From the sequence record NC_041936.1: 64,000 bases of DNA. One strand, written 5' to 3'. A program made the position numbers and the translations under genes. The DNA comes from Escherichia phage ECD7. Shown piece by piece: positions 10,093 to 59,188 of this stretch (its first letter is position 1; each line of letters starts with the position of its first letter). The notes beneath the pieces were generated by a model that was not told the origin of the DNA, did no database searches, and saw only the letters and a list, made by a program, of their open reading frames with translations.

Positions 10093-10610
10093 TGACAGAA
10101 ACTAAACCTATGTTAAAATTTGTTGTTCCTGTAAAAAAATTAGAGATAAACGGGAAACATATCAAGATCCCAAAAATGGGGATTAAGCAACATCGATTAT
10201 TAAAAGATGTTCGTAGCTGTGATGAAACATTAAAGATTCTTCTTGATTCAATCTGTCCTGGGTTAAACGCTGCCGAGTCTGAATTGGTTATGCTTAACCT
10301 TTGTGCGTTTAATGGTAAGTGTCTGGAAGAAAAAGACGGTCTTAAGCTGTCTGATGTGTATATTTGTACAGAGACTGAATTTACTTTAAATGGTAAAGTC
10401 TTTAAATTTAAAAATCCAATGTATACTTCTGACCCCATTATCGATGACGCTGATTTCTTGAGTCATCATTATCACGATCCTAGTGTAGACTTCCATGATT
10501 TCCCAGCTTTTATTATGGATTGGGCTACAGGATTAAGAAAAACTATTGCACTGGATACACCGGAAGGTACTATCTATGGTGGAATTAACATATTGGATCG
10601 CCTATCATGA
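10092..10610 (+). CDS. 28: baseplate hub distal subunit gp28
   Basis: 172 aa, ATGA overlap with gp27 stop, synteny. Confidence 0.75.
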   Translation: MTETKPMLKFVVPVKKLEINGKHIKIPKMGIKQHRLLKDVRSCDETLKILLDSICPGLNAAESELVMLNLCAFNGKCLEEKDGLKLSDVYICTETEFTLNGKVFKFKNPMYTSDPIIDDADFLSHHYHDPSVDFHDFPAFIMDWATGLRKTIALDTPEGTIYGGINILDRLS

Positions 10611-12340
10611 ATGACGCATTAACATCATTTCGCGGGATGCGCAAGGAAGCGGAAGAAAACCCGATTGATAAACTTAACAAATTAGATAAACTTGATTCTA
10701 TTGATAATTTGCAAGCCGCTACCGAATTGGTGGCGGAGACAGTAGAACAAAAATCTAATGAAGTTGTTGGTGCGGTAGAGGATAACACCGCAGCCAATGA
10801 ATTGACGGCAGAAAATACACAATCTACCGCTGGCAATACCAAAAAAACTTATGAAGAATTGCAAAAACTCAATAATTTCTCTTCTCAGATGAATGAGAAA
10901 TTACGTGGTTTTGGTGTTATGATGGAACGTAGATTTGGTGTTGTCAGTAAAATGGCTAGCGGTATTGGTGCGATTGAAGAAGCACTGAAAAAACCGGAAC
11001 AACCGCAAACAATGCCATCACCTCAGCCAGTTTTGCCTACTGTACCGGAACAGCCTAATAATGACAACTATCAAGGTCTTCCAAAGAAAAAACCAGATGT
11101 TGAGGAACGGAAGAAAAAGAACGCCACAGATAAGCGTAATGCCGATTCTATGGAAAATCTTCTTAAAGTTGTTCGTGGAGGATTTAAAGAAACCATAGGT
11201 ATCTCTAATAAGGTCTTAGGGATGTTATTTAAGATCACCTTGACCGCTATGGCAGAAGCCGCAAAATGGGGTGCTATTTTGATGGGTATTGTTTTTGTCA
11301 TTGATACCCTGATGGTTCATTTCAGATATTGGAGCGATTTATTCGAGACAAAATTCAGTGAATTTATGGATAAAGCCGGAGAATGGGCTGGACCAATTAG
11401 TGATATTCTAACAACTATTCGTCAAGTTCGAGATTATTGGTCTAAAGGCGAATATGGAGAGTTAATTAAATCTCTTGTTATGGGTATTGGTGATGCATTC
11501 TATAAAACCTTTATCCAACTTGATCGAATTATCACTACTGGTATTGCTAAAATTCTTCGCATGATCCCTGGTATGGGTGATTATGCCGATAAGTTAGAAT
11601 ACGGTGCTTTAAAGTCTGCTGTCGCTCAAGGCTATACGCCAAATGAAAGAGAACTCGAATTAATGGATAAGGTCGAGTCTGAACATGAAGAAGACAAATA
11701 TGGAGAGCGTACTGGTTGGACCGGAAAAGCCCGTGATATTGGCGAAGCTATTGGGGATTCTATTAAGGATAAAGTTAACGAAGGTCTTGTTAGTCTGGGC
11801 TGGCGAGATCAAAAGGATGTTGACGCAGAGAAACGACAAGAAGAATTAAAACGCGGGGAATATAAGTCTGTTTCTGCTGAACAACGATCTGCTAGTCGTA
11901 AACTTAGAATTAAAAGCGAGGGCGCGATCAATAATATTAATGAAGTTATGGAGAATTTGAGCGGTGACTATGACAAAGAAAGAATGGGAGAGTTGAAAAA
12001 GGATATTGATGTTTACCGTGAGCAAGTTCAAGATCCTACATTAGTTGAAAGTGATCGTTCTCAGTTAGAGCGTCTTATTGAAAAATTTGATGAGATGTAT
12101 GCTGATAAAACTAAGGGTGCGGTTCCAGCTAATCCTGTTCCTGCAACTGAAACGGAAACAGCAAAACAAGCGGAACGTACTGAACAAATGCAGAAACAAG
12201 CTGCAATCCAGCAACAAACGACAAATCAGACCTCAAACGTAAATAATACACAAATTGTAACAAACAATAGAACTGTTAAACAGGGTGCACCAACAACTAG
12301 AATTGATGCCCCCGGTACAATTAATATGGGGAACTTTTAA
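10607..12340 (+). CDS. 29: baseplate hub subunit / tail length determinator gp29
   Basis: 577 aa, coiled-coil rich, synteny between 28 and 48. Confidence 0.8.
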   Translation: MNDALTSFRGMRKEAEENPIDKLNKLDKLDSIDNLQAATELVAETVEQKSNEVVGAVEDNTAANELTAENTQSTAGNTKKTYEELQKLNNFSSQMNEKLRGFGVMMERRFGVVSKMASGIGAIEEALKKPEQPQTMPSPQPVLPTVPEQPNNDNYQGLPKKKPDVEERKKKNATDKRNADSMENLLKVVRGGFKETIGISNKVLGMLFKITLTAMAEAAKWGAILMGIVFVIDTLMVHFRYWSDLFETKFSEFMDKAGEWAGPISDILTTIRQVRDYWSKGEYGELIKSLVMGIGDAFYKTFIQLDRIITTGIAKILRMIPGMGDYADKLEYGALKSAVAQGYTPNERELELMDKVESEHEEDKYGERTGWTGKARDIGEAIGDSIKDKVNEGLVSLGWRDQKDVDAEKRQEELKRGEYKSVSAEQRSASRKLRIKSEGAINNINEVMENLSGDYDKERMGELKKDIDVYREQVQDPTLVESDRSQLERLIEKFDEMYADKTKGAVPANPVPATETETAKQAERTEQMQKQAAIQQQTTNQTSNVNNTQIVTNNRTVKQGAPTTRIDAPGTINMGNF

Positions 12341-13398: not shown

Positions 13399-14330
13399 TG
13401 TTTGATTTAAATGATTTTAACGAACAAGCCGCTAACCTTGACTTTCAGCGATCCAACTTATTCAGCGTGGCATTTGCCACCACTCCAAGTAATAAGACAC
13501 AAGCGATCCTAGAAAGTATGGGCGGTGCGGTATATGATATTATACCAAATGCATTAAATGACTATTTCGGGATTACTCGTGGTGATTATACTGACGCATT
13601 AACAAATCTTGCTGTACAGGGTGTTAGGCGTGCTGTTGATTCATCCGGTGTCAAAAAGTATCTTTTAGGTGCAATGTCATCCCGCGTAGTTCAATCTCTT
13701 CTGGGGCAATTTGATGTTGGTACATATGCGCTTGACTGGTTCAATATGGCATATAAGACAAGCGGTCTTCTGGTGTATGCTGTTAAGGTTCCAGAAAACA
13801 GATTGAATTATGAAATGGACCGTAACCACAATGCACCAAACATTCGAATTACCGGACGTGATTTTGATCCGCTTGTGTTGAGCTTTAGAATGGACTCTAG
13901 CGCATCAAACTATAGAGCAATGCAAGATTGGGTTAACTCAGTAGAAGACCCCGTCACAGGGCTTCGTGCGCTTCCTGTTGACGTTGAAGCGGATATTCAG
14001 GTCAACTTACATAACCGAATGGGAGTCCCTCACACGATCATGATGTTTAATGGTTGTGTTCCTGTTGGTGTGAGTGCACCGGAATTAACCTATGAAAACA
14101 ACAACGAAATTACAACATTCGATGTTACTTTTGCGTATAGGACTATGCAAACTGGTGCTGTAGGAGAGCAAGCCGCGCGAGAATGGATTGAGGATAAGGC
14201 AATAAACGCAATAACAAACACTTTCGGCAATAATTTACTTGATAGTGGGTTATCTGCTGCTGGTAATGCTTTATCGCGTCTAAATGGCGTTGGTGGGCGT
14301 GTGGTGAATACTGTCACCAACTGGTTCTAA
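13398..14330 (+). CDS. 54: baseplate tail tube initiator gp54
   Basis: 310 aa, synteny, strong terminator hairpin downstream. Confidence 0.8.
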   Translation: MFDLNDFNEQAANLDFQRSNLFSVAFATTPSNKTQAILESMGGAVYDIIPNALNDYFGITRGDYTDALTNLAVQGVRRAVDSSGVKKYLLGAMSSRVVQSLLGQFDVGTYALDWFNMAYKTSGLLVYAVKVPENRLNYEMDRNHNAPNIRITGRDFDPLVLSFRMDSSASNYRAMQDWVNSVEDPVTGLRALPVDVEADIQVNLHNRMGVPHTIMMFNGCVPVGVSAPELTYENNNEITTFDVTFAYRTMQTGAVGEQAAREWIEDKAINAITNTFGNNLLDSGLSAAGNALSRLNGVGGRVVNTVTNWF

Positions 14331-14338
14331 TAAGCGAA

Positions 14339-14368
14339 AGGCGGGGATAATCCCCGCCTTTTTATTTT
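14339..14368 (+). terminator. rho-independent terminator downstream of gene 54
   Basis: AGGCGGGGATAATCCCCGCCT hairpin followed by TTTTTATTTT. Confidence 0.65.
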
Positions 14369-14847
14369 GCTAAATCATTGCAATATTTTAGTGCCTTAGT
14401 TTGAAATTCTGCGCTGTTAAGTTCTTCATAACGGTCATAATCACCGTTTAATGCTGCCTTTCTTGCTTCTTGCTCTATCTGCATGTCAGACATGATAATA
14501 CAGCGATCCCGCGCTTTCATCTTCTCAAGTTGTATAGACTCTTCTTTCTGCTTGCGCAATTCTTCTTGACGCTTCTTTTCTTCTTGTGCTTTCTCTTCCC
14601 GCGCTTCTTTGATTGCATCCTTGAACATCTGCGTTTGTGGTGCTAAACCAACTTTAACGCGATCCACGTCTCGACGTTCCATTTTAGAAATAAAGCATGA
14701 TTCGATCTGATCATCACTTGCATATGCTGCTTTACATTCACGAAGCAAGAAAACCGGATCTGATTTAGCATTCATCATAGCTTCCATGTTGGCACAACCA
14801 GTAAGCATGAATGCAGCCGCAAGACCAATCAGTTTAATCATTTTCAT
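14362..14847 (-). CDS. predicted lipoprotein
   Basis: signal peptide with lipobox (..FMLTGCANM..), charged coiled-coil body. Confidence 0.6.
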   Translation of the reverse strand: MKMIKLIGLAAAFMLTGCANMEAMMNAKSDPVFLLRECKAAYASDDQIESCFISKMERRDVDRVKVGLAPQTQMFKDAIKEAREEKAQEEKKRQEELRKQKEESIQLEKMKARDRCIIMSDMQIEQEARKAALNGDYDRYEELNSAEFQTKALKYCNDLAK

Positions 14848-15668
14848 TTAGTCACCTCACCGAAAATTGTAAATTGTCTACGATTCTCATCGCCGAAAGA
14901 TTCTACTACGTCGTTTACCTTGACGCAAGTCCCGCGCGGTAAAATTACTTCACATTCGCAAGGGTTCCATGCAATTGACCCAACAACAAAACCTTTATGA
15001 TCTTTTACGTCAATTACCCATGATACATTACAAGAATGTTGCATCTTTCCGGTCATTGATTCATATCGATTCTCGCAATAAAGGCTAGTGCTGTTTGATA
15101 GCCATCCTCCAAAGATGATTGGTGTCATGCTGGTTGACACAAAGTTTTTAAAGGTAAATTCCTTATCTTCAATAATACGCTCTATTGTCTGAATGTCAAG
15201 ATGTTGACCGCGATAAAGAGTACCGTTTAACTTTTCGGTTTTATCCATGACACAATCCATCAAATCAACAATCTCTGATATCTCATCGGTCATGTCTTCT
15301 TCCCCTAAGAGAGCACCATTTACCCATTCGTATTGTTCGGACACATAATCACAGATTGCATTATATTCTGCTGGGGTTATGTTGTTATGTTTGTAATGTT
15401 TGAATACATTATCTCCAAAGTCTTCGGAGTGTACTTCATACATCACATTAATGATTTTCTTGACAAATCCATAATCTTGTGTCTCACGCTCAAGGAAGCG
15501 GATAACCTTCACATAATCATCAAAGTTAATCTGATCGCTGATCATCTCAGTGATCATGTAACCATTAATCCCCTCAATGTCATATGTTTCGATGTAATTA
15601 TCCATACGTTCCATCATTGATTCGCGTGATTCTTCTGAAAGACGAAAATCCTGTAATTTCTTGAACAT
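14844..15668 (-). CDS. Alt-like ADP-ribosyltransferase paralog
   Basis: 274 aa; shares YRGQ.., FKNFVSTS.., GGW and ECEVILPRG motifs with the C-terminal region of the adjacent Alt ORF (R-S-E ART signature). Confidence 0.7.
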   Translation of the reverse strand: MFKKLQDFRLSEESRESMMERMDNYIETYDIEGINGYMITEMISDQINFDDYVKVIRFLERETQDYGFVKKIINVMYEVHSEDFGDNVFKHYKHNNITPAEYNAICDYVSEQYEWVNGALLGEEDMTDEISEIVDLMDCVMDKTEKLNGTLYRGQHLDIQTIERIIEDKEFTFKNFVSTSMTPIIFGGWLSNSTSLYCENRYESMTGKMQHSCNVSWVIDVKDHKGFVVGSIAWNPCECEVILPRGTCVKVNDVVESFGDENRRQFTIFGEVTK

Positions 15669-15680
15669 TTTAAACCTCCC

Positions 15681-15720
15681 ATATAACAGAAAACGGGGCT
15701 AGTATAAAACTAGTCCCCGT
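15681..15720 (-). terminator. terminator-like hairpin between alt and alt-like gene
   Basis: ACGGGGCTAGT..ACTAGTCCCCGT long hairpin followed by T-rich run on minus strand. Confidence 0.45.
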
Positions 15721-15746
15721 TTGAGTCAACCATTATTTCTTAAAAA

Positions 15747-17798
15747 TTACATTTTAAATTTATCTGGCATTGCGTCTACAGATACCAGATCAGCGATAAG
15801 CTGACGTAGAGTTGCCTTATCTGCTTTCTTACGTTCGGTTTTAGCTTCGCTAATGAAGCTGGAGAAAGACAGGTCAGAAGCAGGTTTAACAACACCCTCA
15901 CGGATGAATGCATCACCGTCCGCGATCATCTCACCAGATTCTTGTAATGCTGCCAGTTCACTTTTGTTCATAATATGTGCCTCAATGTAATAAGTTTCTT
16001 GTGAATCCGTCGATGCCGTAGCACGAGTTACCGTATCAAAGGATAACACAACACCGCGAGGAAGTAAAATCTCGCATTCTTTGTAAGCAAATGCTTTGTT
16101 ACCTACTGGCAATACAGGGATGTTTTCCGCGCCAGCGATAGAGAAAGCAACATTAGCGCCACCTTCACCGCGAGAGCCAGCCATAGAATCAACACCAGCA
16201 ACGGCACTAGCCACGTTTGCATTCCAGCCACCAAAAATATTAGGCGCAAGGGAAGTGCTCACATAGTTTTTAAAGTAAAACGCTTTTTGCTTACGTGCAG
16301 TTTCCCACATTTGCGACCGGAAGTCCATACCACGATACAGAATAGTACCCGGATCAAGTTTAACACCATAGTTAGAGAAGGCATTATCCAGTGCATCGCA
16401 CATCTTGACCAATTCTTCTGGATCTGCGATTCCCTCAAACTCTTCCAGCTTGCGATCAGTTAGGAAGTTGTTCATATTGATGTATGCTGCATCGGCATAT
16501 TCGCTCAACACAAAACCTTCCGCGCCCGGCAGATCAAGATCAATATCTGCCATCATTTCACCCATGTTGCTAGCAATTGCTTCAAACATACCGGACGCAA
16601 CATTACGAAGGGCATCGGTTTTAATCTGGGTGATATGACTACGCAGCATTTCAGCTTTTACATCTGCTGGCATAGACTGGTCTACTCGATCCATTGCCAG
16701 GGCGGTGATCTTGTTTTCGAATACTTCCTCGCTCATGATTTCTTTTAAGCGTTTGATTGAGGCTGCGATAACTTCCGCAGACAACGGATCATATTGATCC
16801 TGAACTTTTACCAGTTCGCTTACTGCGTATTTTGCATCGGCTTCGCTTTCAAAAATAGTACGCATGAAACCATAGCGAGTGATAATATCACTTGTCCAGT
16901 CATTCAGAGAACGGGCGGTTGAACGTTCTAAGGCTTGACGGTCAATCAGAGTATTAAACTGTTTCTTAGGTTCGGCTTCGGTGATATCTTCTTCCGGTTT
17001 AAGATTAATTTTTTCTGGATGATTCACGTAGTCGCTGTTATAGGTCGCTTGAGTTTTCAGCATTTCTTCTTTAGTCAAACGAGATTTAGCCGCTACGCGT
17101 TGTTCTGCTTCCGCGTTTCGTTCTTCTTCTGACACAAGACTAGCCGCATACGCCTCATCTTTAGTCAGAGATTCACCAGTAGCCTTAGATACCCAGCGAT
17201 CACCTAAATCACTTTCTACTTTAGTGAACAAGGATTCATCAAGTTTAATCCCTTTAATCTTATCAATCGCCATCCCGCGACGTTTGACAACAACTAAAGC
17301 GATCTTTTTGCTGGTCATTACTTCCTGCTGGAATACTTCAAACTTCGGTGTACGACGCACCAAACGCTCTATAACGCGCTTAACCAGTTCGGTCTTACCT
17401 TTCATGCGGGATACGTTAAAACGGAACATAACAGCGTCTAATTGCGCTTTACGGGCTGTTTCCATAACCACATCAAAAGCACTTGCCATAACTGCAATCG
17501 GGTTATCACCTAGACCATTTTTAAGCTGTACAATACGACCGCTTTTGTTCATTTCACACAGTACAACGTGTGCGGTCTTGTCACCCATACGAATAATTTT
17601 AGGTGTTTTGTTGGTGAAGTTGCAAAGACGGACAATCACATCTTTATCGCGTGTCTGTACTGCAAAAAGCTGTTTAGGATTCTGCTTAGGCTTTAAGCAT
17701 TGTACCGGAGCAATACTGCCAAAGTTTTCTTCCTCTTCCGTCAACAGCCATTTCTCGAAAGATTCAATCATTAGATCGTCGATTTCTAAGTTAAACAT
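15747..17798 (-). CDS. alt: Alt ADP-ribosyltransferase (internal head protein)
   Basis: 683 aa (T4 Alt about 682); LYRGMDF, FKNYVSTSLAPNIFGGW, ECEILLPRG; position between gene 54 and ligase. Confidence 0.85.
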   Translation of the reverse strand: MFNLEIDDLMIESFEKWLLTEEEENFGSIAPVQCLKPKQNPKQLFAVQTRDKDVIVRLCNFTNKTPKIIRMGDKTAHVVLCEMNKSGRIVQLKNGLGDNPIAVMASAFDVVMETARKAQLDAVMFRFNVSRMKGKTELVKRVIERLVRRTPKFEVFQQEVMTSKKIALVVVKRRGMAIDKIKGIKLDESLFTKVESDLGDRWVSKATGESLTKDEAYAASLVSEEERNAEAEQRVAAKSRLTKEEMLKTQATYNSDYVNHPEKINLKPEEDITEAEPKKQFNTLIDRQALERSTARSLNDWTSDIITRYGFMRTIFESEADAKYAVSELVKVQDQYDPLSAEVIAASIKRLKEIMSEEVFENKITALAMDRVDQSMPADVKAEMLRSHITQIKTDALRNVASGMFEAIASNMGEMMADIDLDLPGAEGFVLSEYADAAYINMNNFLTDRKLEEFEGIADPEELVKMCDALDNAFSNYGVKLDPGTILYRGMDFRSQMWETARKQKAFYFKNYVSTSLAPNIFGGWNANVASAVAGVDSMAGSRGEGGANVAFSIAGAENIPVLPVGNKAFAYKECEILLPRGVVLSFDTVTRATASTDSQETYYIEAHIMNKSELAALQESGEMIADGDAFIREGVVKPASDLSFSSFISEAKTERKKADKATLRQLIADLVSVDAMPDKFKM

Positions 17799-18151: not shown

Positions 18152-18670
18152 TTAGTTATTTTTTAATTGCTCATCTTGCAATAGGGCAATCACATGCTGG
18201 CGATGTTCTTCCGATTGAGGCACACCGAAAAAGTTTGTTTTGTAGAAATACTCTAATCGGTCTTCTCGTGTGCTCTCTTCCATCATGATCGCGGGTAGTC
18301 CGAGATTTCGGAAACGTCGCTTTTCTGCTGGCGTAAAATCACTGTAATACAGCATATAATCATCATTACCAGCAATGCTAAACTCATCCTTCATGAAAGA
18401 GAATATTGCGTTTAAACGCTGTTTACCGTCCACGATTTCGATTTCATAGCGAGAGCCATCATCAATCTTAGCCATTGCGATAGCACCAACCGGAAAATCA
18501 TTAATCAGGTTTTCGATAAACATACGTTTGTTTTCTGTGTCCCATACCAAAGGACGCTGATAATCTGGGTTCATGTTGATATAGCCATCTTCTAACCATG
18601 CTTCGTAAACAGAGATGACAAAGTTTTTAGTATTGGTATAGTAACGGCGTTTAGGCGTTAAACGGTTCAT
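18152..18670 (-). CDS. DUF262 (ParB/Srx-like nuclease/NTPase domain) protein
   Basis: motifs NPDYQRPLVW and DGKQRL are the DUF262 signature; start set to ATG (MNRLT..) with AGGAG SD, 1 nt after upstream stop. Confidence 0.6.
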   Translation of the reverse strand: MNRLTPKRRYYTNTKNFVISVYEAWLEDGYINMNPDYQRPLVWDTENKRMFIENLINDFPVGAIAMAKIDDGSRYEIEIVDGKQRLNAIFSFMKDEFSIAGNDDYMLYYSDFTPAEKRRFRNLGLPAIMMEESTREDRLEYFYKTNFFGVPQSEEHRQHVIALLQDEQLKNN

Positions 18671-18671
18671 A

Positions 18672-19001
18672 TTATAGTCTCCTGAATGGATCATCACGTA
18701 AATCAATATCTTTTAAGAACTCATCCCATGAATGGCGGATATTGTTCTTAATTCTCCAGATAAGCGCAGGGATTGAACGCTCTCCCATCTGGAAGTAAGG
18801 ATCATATGATCCGTATGCCCAATATGCTACTACAATTCCACAATCAGCGCAATAGTATTCTATTTCACTTGCTGGCGACCAAAGTCCATCAATATGATCA
18901 GTGATCTTGCTTTCGATGTTATGGCTATGACAATCAGGGCAACGGATGCAATGACCTTGTTTATCGTAATTTGACGTTAGAGAATACTTAAACAATCTCA
19001 T
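18672..19001 (-). CDS. zinc-ribbon-like hypothetical protein
   Basis: 109 aa, CIRCPDC...CADCG cysteine pairs. Confidence 0.5.
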   Translation of the reverse strand: MRLFKYSLTSNYDKQGHCIRCPDCHSHNIESKITDHIDGLWSPASEIEYYCADCGIVVAYWAYGSYDPYFQMGERSIPALIWRIKNNIRHSWDEFLKDIDLRDDPFRRL

Positions 19002-28360: not shown

Positions 28361-28972
28361 TTATTTATATTTCGCGACCTTTGGATTTCGCCGCAGACCG
28401 GAATGTATTTGCGCTATACAACAATAAGAAACATTAAACATATCAGCTATAATTTGCTTCTTAACTTTTCCTTTAAGCCGCATTATTTCTTCGACTTGCG
28501 CATTTGTCAGTTTTGCCCGTGAGTGGTTTTCACCGACATTGTTATTGAGTCCAGTTCTAAATGAATGTCTCATATTTTCTAGTAAGGTTACTATTTCTAG
28601 ATTCCACACATAATTGCAGGTTTTTACACCATTGATGTGATTAACCTCAAGTCCGGTAACGTCTCCTAGAAATGCATTTGCTACAAGTCGATGTATCTTT
28701 TCGGCTTTAACTGAGATTTTACCATTGTCTTTTTGTTTTGACAATGTTGAATAATAATATCCATATCGGTCTAAAATTGGTTTTATTATTTTACCAGCCC
28801 GTTTTTGTTTTACGAGCTTAATATTACCGGGAGAAACTTCTCTATAAAATTCGATACTTCGGTCAATAGATCTCAATCTACCATAATTAGAGATTTCATA
28901 CCACGGATAACCTACAGCTTGTCTCCATTCTTCCGGCGCTGGTAATACGATATTATCATCTTTTGTTTCCAT
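28361..28972 (-). CDS. HNH homing endonuclease with NUMOD4-like N-terminus
   Basis: WYEISNYGRLRS (NUMOD4-like), EVNHINGVKTCN (HNH), GENHSRAKLT; start set to ATG two codons inside the track TTG start. Confidence 0.7.
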   Translation of the reverse strand: METKDDNIVLPAPEEWRQAVGYPWYEISNYGRLRSIDRSIEFYREVSPGNIKLVKQKRAGKIIKPILDRYGYYYSTLSKQKDNGKISVKAEKIHRLVANAFLGDVTGLEVNHINGVKTCNYVWNLEIVTLLENMRHSFRTGLNNNVGENHSRAKLTNAQVEEIMRLKGKVKKQIIADMFNVSYCCIAQIHSGLRRNPKVAKYK

Positions 28973-30019: not shown

Positions 30020-30897
30020 TAAAAGTCTCCGTAGTTAACCTGAAAACATTCTACACCAATTGAGCGGTACATGTCAACCACTTGATCACGGTCATCTACT
30101 GCCAAAACAACATGATAACGCGGTGCAATTTCAGAGAAGAAAATCTCTTTCTTTACTTCATGATCAGGACGACGATCATTAGTTTCACGTTGAAAGTGAT
30201 CACTAGGTTCGATACCTTGTTCACGCAACCATTGCAGAGTATCTTCTTCGCAAACATCCTCACGTCCTGAGCATGTAATGATACGATAACCATTATCACG
30301 ATACAGTTTAAGCATTTCGATCACTTGCGGACGCGGTTTATCTTCTTTGACCTTTGTCCAGTCAAACGGATGACGACCGCCCTTATCCGCTAATGTCCCA
30401 TCAATATCAAAGATCACTGCCTTTGGCAGCATGGTATTCGGTTTGTATACTTCTTGACCCATATATTCCTGCATCAGATAAAATTGGTTACGCAAATGAG
30501 ATAGCGGAATTGCTTTCTCTCCGCGATAGAAATTACGTTTCTTTAGTGTCTCAAATGATTCATTGAACACTTGCTCAGTATACACCGCGTTAAATTCTTT
30601 TGCAAGTTCTTTATAGAATACACGATGTTTTTCTTTCAGGTTAGTATCAGAGATAATGATACTTAATCCGCGTGATAGAGTCTCGCGAGCAATCATTCTC
30701 TGAATAGACTCTACCAGCTTTTCTTTTTCCTTAGTATACTTGTATTTCAAAAGTGAGTCAACACCAAACAACATAAGACGAAGATCATCACGATTCACAT
30801 TACGATAATTACTAAACCGTTTACATGTTTCCATAGCCCATGTAGTTTTACCGGACCCAGAACAACCAACGGTTAAAATCACTTCACATTTCGGCAT
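30019..30897 (-). CDS. pseT: polynucleotide 5-prime kinase / 3-prime phosphatase
   Basis: P-loop GCSGSGKTTW; HAD phosphatase motif AVIFDIDGTLA; C-terminus ..IGVECFQVNYGDF matches T4 Pnk; start set to ATG (MPKCEV..) with AAGGAG SD. Confidence 0.85.
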   Translation of the reverse strand: MPKCEVILTVGCSGSGKTTWAMETCKRFSNYRNVNRDDLRLMLFGVDSLLKYKYTKEKEKLVESIQRMIARETLSRGLSIIISDTNLKEKHRVFYKELAKEFNAVYTEQVFNESFETLKKRNFYRGEKAIPLSHLRNQFYLMQEYMGQEVYKPNTMLPKAVIFDIDGTLADKGGRHPFDWTKVKEDKPRPQVIEMLKLYRDNGYRIITCSGREDVCEEDTLQWLREQGIEPSDHFQRETNDRRPDHEVKKEIFFSEIAPRYHVVLAVDDRDQVVDMYRSIGVECFQVNYGDF

Positions 30898-31349
30898 TAT
30901 TTCTCCTTCGGTTTGCACCGTTCCTCATTAAGTTCTTTGCGATAATAACACATGATCAACTTACTTTCAAGTGTATATCTCTTAATATCCGCAAGCCAGA
31001 CTCTGAATTTTTGGGAGTCCTCCCACGACATAGAAACTCTAGGTTTACCGTCTATTGTATCCACTTTCAGGTCAATGTCAACTTTTTCTATTGGTGCTGG
31101 TAGTGGAGGATGTAATTTCGGTTCCTGTGAATAATGGTCCATTGTACACGAAGAAAGAGCAAATACAATAGGTACAGCGAAGACATGGATTATGGCGGTC
31201 TGAAAATTCTTATGTGCTTTCTTAAACATCCAGTGTATCACGAAAATTGAAAACACCATCAGGATAATAATGCTTGCACCTATCCCCAGATAATCAACCA
31301 GATTAAAATTGCTTATCTGCTCTTGCGTAGGCAATATTTCTATGCTCAT
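30897..31349 (-). CDS. hypothetical membrane protein
   Basis: 150 aa with two hydrophobic helices; TAATG overlap with pseT. Confidence 0.55.
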   Translation of the reverse strand: MSIEILPTQEQISNFNLVDYLGIGASIIILMVFSIFVIHWMFKKAHKNFQTAIIHVFAVPIVFALSSCTMDHYSQEPKLHPPLPAPIEKVDIDLKVDTIDGKPRVSMSWEDSQKFRVWLADIKRYTLESKLIMCYYRKELNEERCKPKEK

Positions 31350-44779: not shown

Positions 44780-45727
44780 TTAGAACTCACCAATTTTCTG
44801 CAACATTTTAACTAACGCATTTGTTACAAAATAATTATAAATTTTACCGCGTGGTGCTGGTTTAGATTTCTCCCATGCCAACAAAATTTCATATTCGATG
44901 TTATCAGGAATAAATTCAAAATCAATAAGTTCGCGGTTTTCGTCAAAGCGTCGTGCTTCTTCCTCTGTCATCAAAGACTTTGGATCTTCGGCATCGAAAA
45001 TTTGCTCTAACCATTTGGTTGCAATTGGTTTAGCTCGTTCCCCTTCCAGTCGTGAGATAATGAAATCACTACGGCACTTGATAGAAGCTACACCGTCTTT
45101 TGCGTCACCCTTAACACATTTTACCATAAGGTCTTTGTAAGGGCTACCATATTTGCATTTCTTCCATGCTTTCTGTACTGGCGCCCACTGTTTCACATTT
45201 TTGTATTTGTGCAACTGTGTGTAGTCACCATCGCCGGAGTTGATTAGCACCTGGCGACCTTCTACAGAAAACTTTTTAGTTAACACAGCTATTATATCAT
45301 CCGCTTCAACTTTGTCAACCTTAATAACGTGATAAGGCATATTCTCTTTAAACTCTTCGGTGATCTTATTGATCGCAGCAAAGATCATCTCCCAATCACG
45401 CGGATCTGCGTCTCGTTTTTCCTTACGGTTGCGTTTATAGTAAGGGGCGATATCACGTCGCCAGTAACCTTTGCTTGAATCAAAAGCAAGTACCGTAATA
45501 GGGTATTGCTCTTTGAATTTTGTCATATTATAACGCATGGTGTCAAGAATAAGATGACGGATCATGCCTTCATTAATAGGATCTTCCGGTTTAAAGGTAT
45601 GCGAGATAGTAGCAATCATAAGCTGCGACATATCAATCAAATGCACACCCTCCGGCAGTTTATCTTCTGGATCATCGAAGAAATCATTAAGTGTAGCGGT
45701 AGTTTTTGTAAACGGGTTATACGTCAT
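44780..45727 (-). CDS. rnh: RNase H / flap endonuclease
   Basis: ..MPYHVIKVDKVEADDIIAVLTKKFSVEGRQVLINSGDGDYTQLHKYKNVKQW.. matches recalled T4 RNase H. Confidence 0.85.
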   Translation of the reverse strand: MTYNPFTKTTATLNDFFDDPEDKLPEGVHLIDMSQLMIATISHTFKPEDPINEGMIRHLILDTMRYNMTKFKEQYPITVLAFDSSKGYWRRDIAPYYKRNRKEKRDADPRDWEMIFAAINKITEEFKENMPYHVIKVDKVEADDIIAVLTKKFSVEGRQVLINSGDGDYTQLHKYKNVKQWAPVQKAWKKCKYGSPYKDLMVKCVKGDAKDGVASIKCRSDFIISRLEGERAKPIATKWLEQIFDAEDPKSLMTEEEARRFDENRELIDFEFIPDNIEYEILLAWEKSKPAPRGKIYNYFVTNALVKMLQKIGEF

Positions 45728-45729
45728 AA

Positions 45730-45915
45730 TTAAGTTCTCTCCACTCTCACAACAACATATTCGCCAAACGAGTTAGATACTTCACGATCATACCCATATT
45801 TCTCCATAACTCGCAGAATTGCATTGTTTAATTCGGCGCGGAAATAATTGTAATCCTTATCAGGGATTCTGTCAACTACCCATTTTGCACCTTCTGACAA
45901 ATCAACTTTAACCAT
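45730..45915 (-). CDS. hypothetical small protein
   Basis: 61-aa ORF upstream of rnh, same strand. Confidence 0.5.
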   Translation of the reverse strand: MVKVDLSEGAKWVVDRIPDKDYNYFRAELNNAILRVMEKYGYDREVSNSFGEYVVVRVERT

Positions 45916-52665: not shown

Positions 52666-55608
52666 ATGGCAGATTTAAGCAGAATCCAATTTAAACGCAC
52701 TAGCACTAAAGGTCGTAAACCTGATGCTAGTACGATGAATCCGGGGGAATTGGCAATCAACCTTGCGGATCAATATCTTCTTACTAAAAATGATTCCGGT
52801 GCTATTATCAATTTAAGTTGTCCTCCGGTGTATGACCGCGATGTTACAATGGCGGGTAAGGTTAAAGGTAATAATTATATCTTAAGTAAAACCGCCAACT
52901 ATTTGGAAGACCAGACAGCGAGAGATCTTAACTACTTTGGCGCTTTCTGTACCAATGGTCTTGATGGTCTTCTCGAACTCACGCTAAACGTTCCTCACTC
53001 TTCCGGTGTCCAACATGGTCGAGGATTTACTTTCCAGTATGGGCACACTGGATCGCGCGTAGAAACTTATGGATATAATGCACAAGGACAAAAAGCATTT
53101 AGCTATAAAATGTATCACGAAGGTGATAAACCAACTCCAGGAGAATTGAACGTTTATAGCAAACAAGAAGTTGACCGTATGTTTGTTAAAACCGTTAAAC
53201 TTGCTACAGTTCCTGTTGATATAGTTGACGGTTATTTTAAATTAGCGACTGCGATGATTCCGCAAAACGGTCGTAGCGTATTTTTCCGTATTCATGGTGG
53301 TAACGGATATAACGTTACTGCATACGATCAAGTTGATATTGTAGAAATTGTTATTCGCAGTGGAAATAATCGTCCTAAAGGTGTTAACGTTATTGCATAC
53401 CGCCGAAATACAAACAAAGCATTTGATGTTTTGGCTGTTAATACTTCTGGTGATAACTATGATATCTACGTGAAATATCAGCGTTACACTGATAACGTTA
53501 TTGTTGAATTTGGTAAAAGTGTTGATGTTGATCTGGTAGTCCATGACGTTCCAGATTTTGTTGTTGATCGTCCTGTTGGCGATAATGTTATTGGCGGTCG
53601 CGCGGTAACTCTTTTCAACACCGAAAACAAACGAGGTGTGTTGAGTTTTGACGACAACACACAAAATAGTTATGATATTGTTCACTTGAGTAATGATAGG
53701 GGTACTGGACGGAAATATATTCGTAAATTCCGTAGCAACTATAACGAAATGATCTGGCATGAGACGGTTCAAGGTTCTACTTATCGACTCGCCACGGGTA
53801 GTACAGATGCCCAGGAGATTCTATCCGTTGAATCTAGTAGCTCTATTGCTGGGACTCATAAAGGTAATATTCTTTCTGGTCGAATGATGTTGGGTGGCGG
53901 TAGTAATGTTATTACCTTGCGGCGTCCTGCTGGTCAATCCAACCATATTACGTTTCAAGATAATCGGACTGGATCTATTACCCGTCAAGGGTGGATCGGT
54001 TATGGTAATGCTGATACTAACGTTTTTGAATGGTATAGTGATGTAGGTGGTACTTCTATTCGTCACCACATCGACGGACAGATCGAACTTGCAACCGGTA
54101 ACACAAAACGAGTTTATACTAACGCTCAATTCATCTCAATGAATAGCAACGCCTACCGTATGCTATACGGTAATTATGGTGCATTCTGGCGTAATGACGG
54201 CGTTAAAGTTTATCTTCTTTCTACTGCCGAAAATGATAAATTGGGTGGATGGAATAGCTATCGTCCATTCATTTATGATTTAACTTCCGGTAACGTTCAA
54301 TTAGGCGGTGATGGTAACGAAGATGCATTAACGTTAGAACTTGCTTCTCGTGCCGCTCGCTTTAGTAATGACGTTTACATTAAGAAAGGGCATTTGACTT
54401 TCGACGCTGGGCGCTCTGGATCTCGCGATTACTTCCGGTTTAACCATTGGGGTGATAGCAATAATGCCCGTGATAACATTCTATATCTAGAAGACAGTAA
54501 AGGTCGACATTTTAGCACCGAGCGTAATATGGCAACGGGTGCATTAAAAGCCGACTTCTTAGGCGATCTTGAAGTTGGTGGTAAGTTGACATGGGGTAAA
54601 AATACAGCTACATCTAGCTTTAATATTCGTGCATGGGGTAGTGATTCTCGTAAGCAAGTATTAGAATGCGCGGATGAAAGTGGTTGGCATTGGTATACCC
54701 AACGTGCTGGCGGTCCAGGTACTGAATTAATCGATTTTGCCATTAATGGTACTGTTAAGCCTAAAGCAATTCACACTGGCGGTAATATTACCCTGAACGG
54801 TCCTGATATTGAGTTTAAACGCGCTGGCAATAAGCACATCTGGTTTAGAGATCCAGACGGTTTAGAGTTAGGCTTGATGTACTGCGATGATGCTGGTGCT
54901 ATTCGATTCCGTGGTCAGAAACAAGCCCAAGCGTGGAAATTTGCAGATAAAATGATCCAGTTGGAATCTGGTACTGTAACCGGTGGCGGTAATGGCCTGA
55001 TTCGTGGTGAAGTTGCTGGCGGTAGTTGGGCTAGCTGGCGTGACCGTGCTGCTGGCCTTATGGTTGGGTGTCCTCAATCCACCAACTCGGCACATAACGT
55101 ATGGAAAGCGACGCATTGGGGTAAATATCACATTGCAGCAATGGCTGTACATGTTCCTGATGGTACTATTACCAATGCTTTAGCTCGCCTAAACGTTCAT
55201 GACGCCAACTTTGACTTTAGCGCATCCGGTGACTTGTCGGCAGGTCGTAACGGTTCGTTTAACGATGTGTATATTCGTTCTGATGCTCGCCTTAAAATCA
55301 ATAAGGAAGAGTATAAGGAGAATGCCACCGATAAAGTTAATCGCTTGACGGTATACACCTATGACAAGGTTAAATCTTTAACCGACCGTACTGTCATTGC
55401 TCATGAAGTTGGTATTATTGCTCAGGATCTTGAAAAAGAATTGCCGGAAGCCGTAACAACTTCTAAGATCGGCGACCCAGATAATCCAGAAGAGATCTTA
55501 ACAATTTCTAACTCTGCTGTCAACGCTCTTTTAATTAAGGCGTTTCAGGAAATGAGCAAAGAATTGAAAGCCGTTAAAGCTGAACTAGCAGAACTTAAAA
55601 AGAATTAA
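52666..55608 (+). CDS. 37: long tail fibre distal subunit gp37 with C-terminal intramolecular chaperone domain
   Basis: N-terminus ..IQFKRTSTKGRKPDASTMNPGELAINL.. matches T4 gp37; C-terminus ..YIRSDARLKINKEE.. to end resembles peptidase S74 autoproteolytic chaperone domains. Confidence 0.85.
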   Translation: MADLSRIQFKRTSTKGRKPDASTMNPGELAINLADQYLLTKNDSGAIINLSCPPVYDRDVTMAGKVKGNNYILSKTANYLEDQTARDLNYFGAFCTNGLDGLLELTLNVPHSSGVQHGRGFTFQYGHTGSRVETYGYNAQGQKAFSYKMYHEGDKPTPGELNVYSKQEVDRMFVKTVKLATVPVDIVDGYFKLATAMIPQNGRSVFFRIHGGNGYNVTAYDQVDIVEIVIRSGNNRPKGVNVIAYRRNTNKAFDVLAVNTSGDNYDIYVKYQRYTDNVIVEFGKSVDVDLVVHDVPDFVVDRPVGDNVIGGRAVTLFNTENKRGVLSFDDNTQNSYDIVHLSNDRGTGRKYIRKFRSNYNEMIWHETVQGSTYRLATGSTDAQEILSVESSSSIAGTHKGNILSGRMMLGGGSNVITLRRPAGQSNHITFQDNRTGSITRQGWIGYGNADTNVFEWYSDVGGTSIRHHIDGQIELATGNTKRVYTNAQFISMNSNAYRMLYGNYGAFWRNDGVKVYLLSTAENDKLGGWNSYRPFIYDLTSGNVQLGGDGNEDALTLELASRAARFSNDVYIKKGHLTFDAGRSGSRDYFRFNHWGDSNNARDNILYLEDSKGRHFSTERNMATGALKADFLGDLEVGGKLTWGKNTATSSFNIRAWGSDSRKQVLECADESGWHWYTQRAGGPGTELIDFAINGTVKPKAIHTGGNITLNGPDIEFKRAGNKHIWFRDPDGLELGLMYCDDAGAIRFRGQKQAQAWKFADKMIQLESGTVTGGGNGLIRGEVAGGSWASWRDRAAGLMVGCPQSTNSAHNVWKATHWGKYHIAAMAVHVPDGTITNALARLNVHDANFDFSASGDLSAGRNGSFNDVYIRSDARLKINKEEYKENATDKVNRLTVYTYDKVKSLTDRTVIAHEVGIIAQDLEKELPEAVTTSKIGDPDNPEEILTISNSAVNALLIKAFQEMSKELKAVKAELAELKKN

Positions 55609-58429: not shown

Positions 58430-59188
58430 TTACTTGCAAACGTATTGATCTACATCAATTGCGCCACCGAATGTGGGATGACGTTTTTCAAATCGAATAG
58501 TTCCGTCGTTTGGTTCGAAAACGGAGTATTCATATAGATCTTTCTTGCCAACATTCTTATAAAACCCACCTTTAGTCATAACGGTTTCTTGTACGTTTGC
58601 TTTGTGTACGTTGTATTCGTCAATGTATACAAAATCAACCATCTTCCCATTTTTAATGGTTACTTTAAGATCTCCTGGCTGGTTTCCATATTTTGCATAC
58701 AGTGGAGCCTCTTTAATTTTTGTGGAAATTCCATCTTTCATACTCCACTCATAACGAACGGTGCATTGATAGGTAAAAGTTTCGACCTTCGGTTCTTCTA
58801 CCACTTTTGCTTCCTGTTTCGGTTGTTCTTCTTCAACCTTCGCAGAAGTCTCTGAATCTCTCTCTGACTCGGTTTCTTCTTTAGGTAATACATTCATCAA
58901 GTTTTGGATTTGAGCGTTATATACAACCTCCAGTGGCTGAATCTGCCCGATATTGATCATTGTATCACGAACAGTTTTATTCCAGTTGCGTTGCTCTTGT
59001 TTAAGAGACGGATCAATCTTAACAGCCTTAACATATACCTCATGAAGTTTCGAATCCAGTGCGGAGATTGACTCATTAGCACAAATAAACTTCTCTGATT
59101 TGGTAGTGGCTTTAGCGCAATCAAAGGACGCAGCATTAGCACCGAAAGCAGTAGCGGAAAGAACGATAGCAGCGATAATGTTTTTCAT
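58430..59188 (-). CDS. secreted protein with DUF1311 (LprI-like) N-terminal domain, tentative
   Basis: cleavable signal peptide MKNIIAAIVLSATAFGANAAS; ..FDCAKA..FICANE..LD..L..Y......QRNW..RD.. pattern; promoter cassette upstream. Confidence 0.55.
   Translation of the reverse strand: MKNIIAAIVLSATAFGANAASFDCAKATTKSEKFICANESISALDSKLHEVYVKAVKIDPSLKQEQRNWNKTVRDTMINIGQIQPLEVVYNAQIQNLMNVLPKEETESERDSETSAKVEEEQPKQEAKVVEEPKVETFTYQCTVRYEWSMKDGISTKIKEAPLYAKYGNQPGDLKVTIKNGKMVDFVYIDEYNVHKANVQETVMTKGGFYKNVGKKDLYEYSVFEPNDGTIRFEKRHPTFGGAIDVDQYVCK

What the first reader, a model, noticed from the sequence alone, without database searches (positions are those of the whole stretch)
14362..14847. Phage-encoded lipoprotein between baseplate gene 54 and alt
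The 161-aa ORF has a lipobox signal peptide (LTGC) and a charged coiled-coil body. Phage lipoproteins often mediate superinfection exclusion or receptor masking (T5 Llp, lambdoid Cor). The gene is on the opposite strand to the flanking structural genes, consistent with a moron-like insertion.
Basis: partly seen in the sequence, partly recalled or inferred. Interest (0 to 1): 0.4.

Follow-up and report, generated by a model that had tools for sequence, protein, structure and literature searches.

The report
Early phage outer-membrane lipoprotein, function untested
This is a real, conserved gene of RB49-like (Krischvirus) coliphages that encodes a rod-shaped lipoprotein, probably anchored under the host outer membrane and made early in infection; blocking entry of rival phages is the likeliest role, but nothing here tests it.

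Summary
ORF 14362-14847(-) is a real 161-aa gene with a canonical lipoprotein signal (MKMIKLIGLAAAFMLTG|C, Ala at +2, so outer-membrane sorting is expected).

- **Genome:** a Krischvirus, 99% identical to phages Cognac and Phi1.
- **Conservation:** the gene is in all 57 Krischvirus records that hold the locus, under purifying selection (dN/dS 0.10).
- **Position:** always directly downstream of a 274-aa Alt-like ADP-ribosyltransferase (ATGA overlap), behind a conserved early sigma70-type promoter/stem-loop, and convergent with gene 54.
- **Not a moron:** its G+C matches the genome and no relative lacks it.
- **Structure:** AF2 (pLDDT 88) gives an all-helical rod with a 62-residue charged central helix. 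Four further Cys are invariant. It has no sequence or fold relative outside its own small family, and none to Llp, Cor, Spackle, Lpp or spanins.
- **New finding:** the mature-protein coding part is a swappable cassette. Alleles only 25-30% identical sit between flanks 98% identical, with breakpoints at the signal peptide and the terminator.
- **No link to receptor use:** allele type does not track gp38, the gp37 tip or OmpA dependence.
- **Context:** Krischvirus has no detectable T4 Imm or Spackle homologue.

Best guess (about 0.4) is an early envelope-acting exclusion or lytic-conversion factor. This is not tested.

The parts
14362..14847 (-). Lipoprotein gene (161 aa; phrog_16112, unknown function)
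   Evidence: ORF; full-length match to phrog_16112, E 9e-110; 57 phage records; dN/dS 0.10; AF2 pLDDT 88, all-helical.
14794..14847 (-). Signal peptide (residues 1-17) and lipobox Cys18 (codon 14794-14796), followed by Ala at +2
   Evidence: Sequence MKMIKLIGLAAAFMLTG|CA. Passes the PS51257-like rule. Every family member keeps G-C and has A or S at +2, never D.
14379..14809 (-). Allelic cassette: the part coding for the mature protein, replaced by unrelated DNA (25-31% aa identity) in otherwise near-identical phages
   Evidence: blastn against phage 011D4: flanks 98.4% and 98.2% identical up to window 14810 and from 14378, with no DNA match in between. Protein alignment. Neighbour identities.
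14853..14858 (-). Shine-Dalgarno GAGGTG, 5 nt before the ATG. The ATG overlaps the TGA of the upstream ART gene (ATGA at 14844-14847).
   Evidence: Sequence. A GAGGT-type SD is present in 11 of the 12 loci compared, all but L014.
14336..14362 (.). G+C-rich hairpin shared by the converging gene 54 and lipoprotein transcripts (bidirectional terminator)
   Evidence: Terminator scan. Folds at -21.8 (+) and -19.9 (-) kcal/mol, z -4.3 and -3.5. Annotated on both strands in GEC-3S.
14844..15668 (-). 274-aa Alt-like ADP-ribosyltransferase, the invariable upstream partner gene
   Evidence: PF03496, E 4e-16. phrog_15144, and phrog_802 positions 330-602 of 674, i.e. the catalytic half of Alt. Adjacent in all ten related loci examined.
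15691..15729 (-). Early sigma70-type promoter TTGACT-17-TATACT (15701-15729) overlapping a stem-loop (15691-15722): a PeSL-type terminator/promoter element that ends alt and starts the ART-lipoprotein unit
   Evidence: Promoter scan. Annotated in GEC-3S. Conserved about 840-900 nt upstream of the lipoprotein ATG in all loci with enough sequence, including those with ART only 44-62% identical. Fold -19 kcal/mol, z -3.2. PeSL concept: PMC4122927.
15172..15199 (-). Candidate internal promoter TTGACA-16-TATTAT inside the ART gene, 352 nt upstream of the lipoprotein ATG
   Evidence: 11 of 12 consensus positions. A site at the same offset in L011, L012 (12/12) and L009 (10/12). This could equally reflect conserved codons, so it is unproven.
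15747..17798 (-). alt (683 aa), head of the leftward block
   Evidence: phrog_802, E 6e-180; annotations.

Best explanation
The gene encodes a lipoprotein that the infected E. coli cell makes early, together with an Alt-like ADP-ribosyltransferase, from one early promoter.

**Shape.** The mature 143-residue protein is predicted to be a rod.
- A small two-helix domain sits just under the membrane (two conserved Cys, and a conserved RD...G loop).
- A roughly 62-residue, highly charged helix acts as a spacer about 9 nm long.
- A small C-terminal helical hairpin follows. Its two Cys are exactly 40 residues apart, and a conserved G-D-Y turn forms the far tip.

**Most likely job.** It probably changes the envelope of the infected cell so that later-arriving phages, or progeny hitting cell debris, fail. 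It could do this by binding the periplasmic side of an outer-membrane component, or by intercepting the tail tip or ejected proteins in the periplasm. That would fill the role Imm and Spackle play in T4 and Llp plays in T5.

**Alleles.** The mature part exists as deeply diverged alleles that are swapped between phages by recombination at the conserved signal-peptide and terminator sequences.

**What is shown and what is inferred.** Shown: the gene, the signal, conservation, synteny, promoter motifs, allele structure and the absence of relatives. Inferred: localisation, disulfides, rod geometry and, above all, the exclusion function.
For: - **Signal.** Lipobox and +2 Ala; independent lipoprotein annotation of homologues.
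- **Early expression.** A conserved sigma70-type PeSL promoter lies upstream of the ART-lipoprotein pair, with ATGA coupling.
- **Not the spanin.** It is the only lipoprotein besides the o-spanin in a whole genome equivalent. RB49, Phi1 and JSE are already listed as having T4-type spanins.
- **Vacant niche.** No homologue of T4 Sp or Imm was found in Phi1 1-98.2 kb plus the window (best E 0.03), and none is annotated.
- **Real and constrained.** dN/dS is 0.10. Invariant residues are C38, C51, D60, G67, C116, G135 and C156. Cys3-Cys4 spacing is 40 residues in 14 of 15 members, and the spacer is 44-53 residues in 14 of 15.
- **Same architecture across alleles.** Two alleles only 32% identical are predicted with the same layout: long helix of 62 and 63 residues, pLDDT 88 and 87.
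- **Conflict-gene pattern.** It is the most diverged gene of its neighbourhood in nearly every comparison. In 011D4, for example: alt 100%, ART 100%, lipoprotein 31%, gp54 99%.
[quoted passage not shown] An Rtp accessory protein binds the periplasmic face of LptD.
Against: - No experiment exists for any member. Literature searches found none.
- There is no sequence or fold similarity to any known exclusion protein.
- Allele type is independent of gp38 type (3 of 12 versus 4 of 13 phages carry divergent alleles) and of the gp37 tip.
- Allele type is also independent of OmpA dependence. Cognac49, RB49 and Whisky49 all need OmpA although Whisky carries a 32%-identical allele. Brandy49 does not need OmpA yet carries the main allele.
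- A long rod with its best-conserved turn about 9 nm from the membrane is not what a compact receptor plug such as Llp looks like.
- The window also encodes a secreted LprI-domain (lysozyme-inhibitor family) protein at 58430..59188 that could cover a Spackle-like role instead.
- dN/dS shows old alleles under purifying selection, not ongoing positive selection.
Confidence: 0.4

Rival explanations
1. Envelope tether or spacer. The rod acts like Braun's lipoprotein Lpp, bridging the outer membrane and the peptidoglycan layer or setting their distance. This would stiffen or re-space the envelope of the infected cell, for example to resist lysis from without, to hold the cell together during lysis inhibition, or to reduce vesicle loss.
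For: - It is an outer-membrane anchor plus a long helix whose length is conserved: a 62/63-residue helix in two alleles, and a spacer of 44-53 residues in 14 of 15 members.
- 13 of 15 diverse members end in Lys, as Lpp does (general knowledge).
- One allele gives a weak hit to the Lpp/OprI alanine-zipper model (E 0.017, 15.7 bits).
- Phi1 has rI and rI.-1, so lysis inhibition is probably present.
Against: - The Lpp-model hit is far below its cutoff (43 bits) and was seen for one allele only.
- The C-terminal Lys is not invariant; two members end in Asn.
- The charged helix has no hydrophobic seam for a trimeric coiled coil.
- The C-terminus is predicted to fold back along the rod, not to sit at its tip (topology inference).
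- This idea does not explain deep allelic polymorphism.
Confidence: 0.15
2. Host-takeover or counter-defence factor. The rod binds and inhibits a host envelope machine unrelated to phage entry, such as a periplasmic or outer-membrane protease, Tol-Pal, the Rcs sensor, or an envelope-located defence or toxin-import route.
For: - It is an early gene in a block of host-takeover genes (alt, ART).
- It is periplasm-facing, with conserved loops at both poles of the rod.
- Lack of co-variation with receptor-binding proteins fits a target that is not the receptor.
Against: - There is no similarity to any known inhibitor or PADLOC-listed protein.
- A conserved host target would not obviously maintain alleles only 25% identical.
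Confidence: 0.15
3. Accessory lysis protein: a regulator or extra component of the spanin/holin pathway.
For: - It is an outer-membrane lipoprotein with periplasmic Cys residues, as o-spanins are.
- Its charged helical body recalls i-spanin periplasmic domains.
Against: - RB49, Phi1 and JSE already have a PseT.3/PseT.2 pair, and an o-spanin-like ORF sits next to the pseT-sized ORF (299 aa; identity assigned from size and position only) at 30897..31229.
- There is no adjacent i-spanin and no C-terminal transmembrane segment, so it is not a u-spanin.
- It has an early rather than a late promoter: there is no TATAAATA nearby, the nearest minus-strand copy being at 28362.
Confidence: 0.08
4. Functional partner of the adjacent ADP-ribosyltransferase, for example an immunity-like or regulatory protein, as in toxin-immunity gene pairs.
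For: The two genes are strictly adjacent, with overlapping or abutting stop and start in all but one locus (L014, an 11-nt gap), even where the ART is 44-62% and the lipoprotein 23-47% identical.
Against: - The ART has no signal peptide (MFKKLQDFRLSEES...) and so is cytoplasmic, while the lipoprotein is exported. They would not meet.
- In 011D4, Whisky and L007 the lipoprotein allele is swapped while the ART stays 97-100% identical, so there is no co-evolution.
Confidence: 0.07
5. A moron recently acquired from outside and inserted between structural genes.
For: - It sits at the junction of two transcription blocks next to a terminator.
- It has a possible promoter of its own inside the ART gene.
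Against: - It is present in all 57 Krischvirus records and in every distant relative at the same position.
- G+C is 0.40 against 0.404 for the window.
- It is translationally coupled to the upstream gene.
- It has no bacterial homologues: only 12 clusters at 50% identity among 1.8 billion representatives. Ten are short lipoproteins of this family, all seven whose contigs were looked up sit in this phage locus, and two are weak hits to proteins over 1200 aa.
Confidence: 0.04

Closest known systems
T5 Llp (lytic conversion lipoprotein) and the Cor lipoproteins of T1/phi80-like phages
   Same: They are phage-encoded lipoproteins. Llp is made early, sits on the periplasmic side of the outer membrane and is disulfide-stabilised. 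It blocks re-infection and loss of progeny on debris.
   Different: - There is no sequence or fold similarity; only signal-peptide-level hits to Cor models and no fold hits.
- This protein is about 2.5 times larger and rod-shaped rather than compact.
- It is not encoded next to the receptor-binding protein: in Phi1, gp38 lies at 45 kb and this locus at 112 kb.
- Its alleles do not follow the adhesin type.
T4 Spackle (Sp) and Imm
   Same: They are early, envelope-located superinfection-exclusion proteins of a related phage. Sp is a small periplasmic protein (annotation). Krischvirus has no detectable homologue of either, so the niche is open.
   Different: - No homology.
- Sp is soluble rather than lipid-anchored, and Imm is an inner-membrane protein.
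- They lie at a different genomic locus.
Ltp-type lipoproteins of Streptococcus thermophilus phages (TP-J34)
   Same: A lipoprotein dedicated to superinfection exclusion (abstract of PMC3952083). From my own knowledge, not checked here: Ltp is all-helical and targets the tape measure protein of the incoming phage.
   Different: - Gram-positive host, temperate phage, anchored to the cytoplasmic membrane.
- No Pfam or PHROG similarity detected.
Braun's lipoprotein Lpp / OprI
   Same: An outer-membrane lipoprotein consisting mainly of a long helix of defined length; C-terminal Lys in most members.
   Different: - Only a sub-threshold hit, for one allele.
- No alanine-zipper or hydrophobic heptad core.
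- It has extra Cys-containing end domains.
- The C-terminal Lys is not invariant.
Phage o-spanins (lambda Rz1, T4 PseT.2)
   Same: Phage outer-membrane lipoproteins with periplasmic cysteines.
   Different: - The phage has its own PseT.2/PseT.3-type pair.
- This protein is larger and helical.
- It is expressed from an early promoter and has no i-spanin neighbour.

Membership tests
Bacterial lipoproteins (Lgt/LspA substrates; PROSITE PS51257) | Lys/Arg within the first 7 residues, an uncharged hydrophobic stretch, and a lipobox [LVI][ASTVI][GAS]-C with Cys at position 15-35 | tested here: met
   K2, K5; LIGLAAAFM; L-T-G-C18. Passes the rule implemented. All 15 diverse members keep G-C.
Bacterial lipoproteins (Lgt/LspA substrates; PROSITE PS51257) | Outer-membrane sorting: no Asp at +2 (Lol avoidance rule) | tested here: met
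   Ala at +2 in the window protein; A or S in all 15 members. Actual localisation was not tested.
Bacterial lipoproteins (Lgt/LspA substrates; PROSITE PS51257) | Actual acylation and signal peptidase II cleavage | not testable with these tools
   Needs globomycin sensitivity or palmitate labelling.
T5 Llp / Cor superinfection-exclusion lipoproteins | Sequence membership in the family models (phrog_1119, NF047972) | tested here: not met
   phrog_1119: E 0.0074, residues 1-45 only. NF047972: E 0.058, 13 bits against a cutoff of 31, residues 1-31, for one member. Only the signal peptide matches.
T5 Llp / Cor superinfection-exclusion lipoproteins | Small compact fold (about 60-80 aa) | tested here: not met
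   143-aa mature protein predicted as an elongated helical rod. No fold match in PDB or BFVD outside its own family.
T5 Llp / Cor superinfection-exclusion lipoproteins | Gene next to the receptor-binding protein gene and matched to its receptor | tested here: not met
   The neighbours are an ART gene and gene 54. gp38 is elsewhere in the genome. Allele type is independent of gp38 and gp37 type.
T5 Llp / Cor superinfection-exclusion lipoproteins | Blocks infection when expressed | not testable with these tools
   No experimental data found.
Two-component or unimolecular spanins | o-spanin paired with an i-spanin gene, or a u-spanin with a C-terminal transmembrane segment | tested here: not met
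   No i-spanin neighbour. The C-terminus ...KALKYCNDLAK is not hydrophobic. The spanin pair is accounted for elsewhere.
T4 Spackle / Imm | Sequence homology | tested here: not met
   tblastn of T4 Sp and Imm against a Krischvirus genome equivalent: best E 0.03 and 0.34, neither at this locus.
Lpp/OprI alanine-zipper lipoproteins (NF040598) | Score above the model cutoff; trimeric alanine-zipper helix; C-terminal Lys | tested here: not met
   15.7 bits against a cutoff of 43, one allele only, none for the window protein. C-terminal Lys in 13 of 15 members, not invariant.
Moron | Autonomous insertion present in some relatives and absent in others, often with atypical composition | tested here: not met
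   Present in all relatives at the same site. G+C equals the genome's. Coupled to the upstream gene.

The most novel reading that the evidence does not exclude
The locus is a polymorphic 'exclusion-group' determinant. RB49-like phages lack Imm and Spackle and instead use this outer-membrane-anchored rod to intercept something that incoming relatives deliver into the periplasm. The deeply diverged, recombining alleles would then define which co-circulating Krischvirus phages can exclude which. That would be a non-homologous, allele-specific exclusion system in a T4-like lineage.
Probability: 0.2. Interest if true: 0.6.

Novelty: new variant of a known kind. Interest (0 to 1): 0.4.

Why it matters
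RB49-like phages are common in the gut and in sewage and are used in therapeutic cocktails. How they handle superinfection is not known, and they lack detectable T4 exclusion genes.

This gene is a short, well-defined candidate that can be tested in a week by plasmid expression and deletion. If it excludes phages, it would add a structurally new class, a rod-shaped and allele-swapping one, to the few known envelope-level exclusion proteins. It would also bear on which phages can be combined in a cocktail.

The cassette structure is a clean example of module exchange in T4-like genomes at boundaries other than the described PeSL elements: the breakpoints lie at the signal-peptide codons and at the terminator.

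If it does nothing detectable, it remains an ordinary conserved hypothetical lipoprotein.

Tried and rejected
- **Remote homology gave nothing.** Pfam, PHROGs, NCBIfam, PADLOC and a PDB sequence profile returned only signal-peptide or low-complexity hits.
- **The exhaustive profile search shows the family is tiny.** It found only 12 clusters at 50% identity among 1.8 billion representatives.
- **IMG/VR scans failed.** The family alignment was too variable to build patterns, and single distant members gave no confirmed loci. Exact-protein contig look-ups worked instead.
- **Co-variation tests were negative or uninformative.**
  - gp37 tip and gp38 adhesin: no association.
  - gp29: all 4 phages with a divergent gp29 carry a divergent lipoprotein and none of the 49 main-allele phages do. 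However, 4 other divergent-allele phages have the main gp29, and the genes lie only 2-4 kb apart. Whisky and JK32 are diverged across gp48 and gp54 too. I therefore read this as physical linkage, not functional coupling.
- **Positive selection rejected.** dN/dS is 0.10.
- **Other readings rejected.** The o-spanin, u-spanin, ART-immunity and moron readings are rejected for the reasons given under rivals.
- **T4 alt.-3,** at the equivalent position, is not a lipoprotein.
- **Late promoter rejected.** There is no TATAAATA near the gene.
- **Not possible here.** I could not obtain model coordinates, so the two proposed disulfides (C38-C51, C116-C156) and the rod length rest on secondary-structure topology only.

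Full report
**What the window is.** The 4.4 kb around the finding is 98.4-99.3% identical to Krischvirus genomes: Cognac, Phi1, MIZ phages, GEC-3S and RB49. The layout is that of T4. The rightward late genes 29, 48 and 54 end at 14330. On the other strand come alt (15747..17798), a 274-aa Alt paralogue (14844..15668) and the ORF in question (14362..14847). T4 has alt.-1, alt.-2 and alt.-3 in the same position and orientation.

**The observation.** The ORF is real and sits at the stated coordinates.
- It has a GAGGTG ribosome-binding site 5 nt upstream, and its ATG overlaps the TGA of the upstream gene.
- Its N-terminus (K2, K5, LIGLAAAFM, L-T-G-C18) meets a PROSITE-type lipoprotein rule. I ran that rule over all frames of a full genome equivalent. 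Only this ORF and an o-spanin-like ORF, next to a 299-aa ORF that I take to be pseT from its size and position, passed as credible genes.
- Independent annotations agree. W115's 99.4%-identical homologue is labelled 'putative lipoprotein' in a study that lists LipoP among its annotation tools. The KFS-EC homologue is named 'Lipoprotein'.
- Residue +2 is Ala here and A or S in every relative. [quoted passage not shown] This is an inference.
- The gene occurs in all 57 phage records that hold the locus. dN/dS is 0.10 against a relative with dS 0.98, so it is a constrained coding gene.

**Transcription context.**
- Between alt and the ART gene lies TTGACT-17-TATACT overlapping a stable stem-loop. 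The promoter is annotated in GEC-3S.
- It is conserved 840-900 nt upstream of the lipoprotein ATG in every locus with enough sequence, including loci where the ART is only 44-62% identical.
- It fits the promoter-early stem-loop (PeSL) elements described for RB49 and Phi1.
- No late-promoter TATAAATA is near.
- A second sigma70-like site inside the ART gene, 352 nt upstream of the ATG, recurs in distant loci. This could equally be codon conservation.
- The gene ends at a hairpin shared with gene 54.
- The gene is therefore the distal member of an early two-gene unit. It is not an opposite-strand insertion. Its G+C (0.40) equals the window's (0.404).

**The family.**
- A word-indexed search found 41 clusters at 90% identity.
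- An exhaustive profile search of 1.8 billion representatives found only 12 clusters at 50% identity. Ten are short lipoproteins of this family; two are weak hits (E about 1e-4) to proteins over 1200 aa.
- The diverse members I retrieved and aligned are 155-175 aa lipoproteins.
- Invariant positions are the lipobox G-C, four further Cys (38, 51, 116, 156), D60, G67 and G135.
- The last two Cys are exactly 40 residues apart in 14 of 15 members. The G67-C116 spacer is 44-53 residues in 14 of 15 and is 43-71% E/K/R/D/Q.
- Nine metagenomic or isolate loci carrying members down to 23% identity all show the same arrangement: alt, then a 271-282-aa ART, then the lipoprotein (overlapping or abutting, with an 11-nt gap in L014), then a convergent gene 54.

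**Structure.**
- AF2 on the family alignment gives pLDDT 88. The helices are 31-41, 45-65, a single long helix 72-133, then 137-143 and 146-159.
- A 32%-identical allele (Whisky type) gives the same plan with a 63-residue long helix, pLDDT 87.
- From the topology I infer a rod. One conserved loop (RD...G) lies near the membrane and one conserved turn (G-D-Y) lies about 9 nm away. The Cys pairs are positioned to staple each end domain. I could not inspect coordinates, so this is inference.
- The middle of the long helix lacks a hydrophobic seam. 'Coiled coil' is therefore better read as an ER/K-like single-helix spacer.
- Pfam, PHROGs, NCBIfam, PADLOC and the PDB sequence profile gave only signal-peptide-level hits.

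**The new finding: an allelic cassette.**
- Eight Krischvirus isolates carry, at the same site, proteins only 27-30% identical to the common allele.
- In 011D4 the DNA is 98% identical up to window 14378 and again from 14810. It is unalignable in between. Only the mature-protein coding part is exchanged, with breakpoints at the signal-peptide codons and at the last codons plus terminator.
- Neighbour identities in 011D4 make the point: alt 100%, ART 100%, lipoprotein 31%, gp54 99%, gp48 100%.
- In other loci the lipoprotein is likewise the most diverged gene of the alt-ART-gp54-gp48 neighbourhood.
- Low dN/dS says these are old alleles kept by purifying selection and shuffled by recombination, not a gene evolving rapidly now.

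**Does allele type follow the receptor?** No.
- gp38 adhesins fall into two types. Divergent lipoprotein alleles occur in 3 of 12 phages of one type and 4 of 13 of the other.
- gp37-tip similarity is also unrelated. Whisky has the closest tip (95.8%) but a 32%-identical lipoprotein.
- Published phenotypes agree. RB49, Cognac49 and Whisky49 all depend on OmpA on K-12, whereas Brandy49 does not, although Brandy carries the common allele.
- Divergent gp29 alleles are found only in phages with divergent lipoproteins (4 of 4 versus 0 of 49). However, four other divergent-lipoprotein phages have the common gp29, and the genes are 2-4 kb apart in a block that is diverged as a whole in Whisky and JK32. 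I attribute this to linkage.

**Function.** Nothing experimental exists for this protein. I rank an envelope-level exclusion or lytic-conversion role first, at about 0.4. The reasons are:
- early expression;
- predicted outer-membrane, periplasm-facing location;
- it is the only non-spanin lipoprotein of the phage;
- no T4 Imm or Spackle homologue is detectable in the genus;
- a polymorphism pattern typical of conflict genes;
- precedents in Llp and the Rtp factor, which act from the periplasmic face of the receptor.

Within that class, the rod shape, the distal conserved turn and the lack of receptor co-variation make a periplasmic interception mechanism at least as likely as receptor masking.

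The rivals are an Lpp-like tether or spacer (0.15), a host-envelope takeover or counter-defence factor (0.15), an accessory lysis role (0.08), a partner of the ART (0.07) and a recent moron (0.04).

**Verdict.** The gene is an already catalogued hypothetical lipoprotein (phrog_16112) with no assigned function. What is added here is:
- its operon context;
- its predicted rod architecture;
- its restriction to Krischvirus-like phages;
- its cassette-type allelic polymorphism;
- the negative co-variation tests.

It is moderately interesting as a ready-to-test candidate, and nothing about it is extraordinary on present evidence.

Noticed in passing
window 58430..59188 (-): A 252-aa protein with a cleavable-looking signal peptide (MKNIIAAIVLSATAFGANA) and an N-terminal LprI (lysozyme inhibitor, PF07007) domain, E 1e-5, above the Pfam cutoff. 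It is a second exported phage protein and could be a Spackle-like lysozyme inhibitor. It corresponds to RB49ORF260c, annotated hypothetical.
   Followed up: partly
window 30897..31229 (-): An ORF with a lipobox (…VFALSS|C) and a proline-rich start of the mature part. It overlaps the end of a 299-aa ORF that is probably pseT. It is likely the PseT.2-type o-spanin that the spanin census lists for RB49, Phi1 and JSE.
   Followed up: partly
window 10607..12340 (+) (gp29) and the phage collection: gp29 (tail length determinator) is dimorphic within Krischvirus. Fifty-three records are at least 94% identical. PTE-Eco09, AV108 and JK32 are about 53% identical, and Whisky is 66% over 63% of the query. 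In Whisky and JK32 the divergence extends through gp48 and gp54.
   Followed up: partly
window 52666..55608 (+) (gp37): gp37 ends in a segment that resembles a self-cleaving intramolecular chaperone domain, which is what the literature says for RB49. No gp38 gene follows it. In Phi1, gp38 is encoded about 108 kb away at 44989..45765. In tblastn the last 16 residues of the query tail never aligned (query_to 286 of 302), possibly because of low-complexity filtering.
   Followed up: no
window 15691..15729 (-): The alt-ART intergenic region is a textbook PeSL: an early promoter whose -10 box lies in the loop region of a G+C-rich hairpin that can also terminate alt. It is conserved in distant relatives.
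   Followed up: yes
window 14560..14620 (-), residues about 78-100 of the lipoprotein: Close alleles differ by in-frame indels in the EEK-rich helix: P0006 has 5 fewer residues, P0007 has 7 fewer and P0033 has 11 more through a duplicated EEESRKENKHQ. This suggests slippage in the repetitive GAA/AAG-rich DNA and some tolerance in rod length.
   Followed up: no
window 18152..18706 (-): An ORF of up to 184 aa (173 aa in GEC-3S) upstream of alt. Its counterpart in a related contig carries a precomputed GmrSD_N/DUF262 hit (PF03235). The sequence contains a DGKQR motif. A stand-alone DUF262 domain in a phage could relate to restriction or anti-restriction.
   Followed up: no
window 14844..15668 (-) versus T4 L005:6066-6451: Both T4 and Krischvirus carry partial alt duplications downstream of alt, but of different halves. 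T4 alt.-1/alt.-2 derive from the first part of alt (annotation note). The Krischvirus 274-aa protein matches the catalytic half (phrog_802 positions 330-602) and looks intact (PF03496, E 4e-16). Phi1 additionally has a modB.
   Followed up: partly
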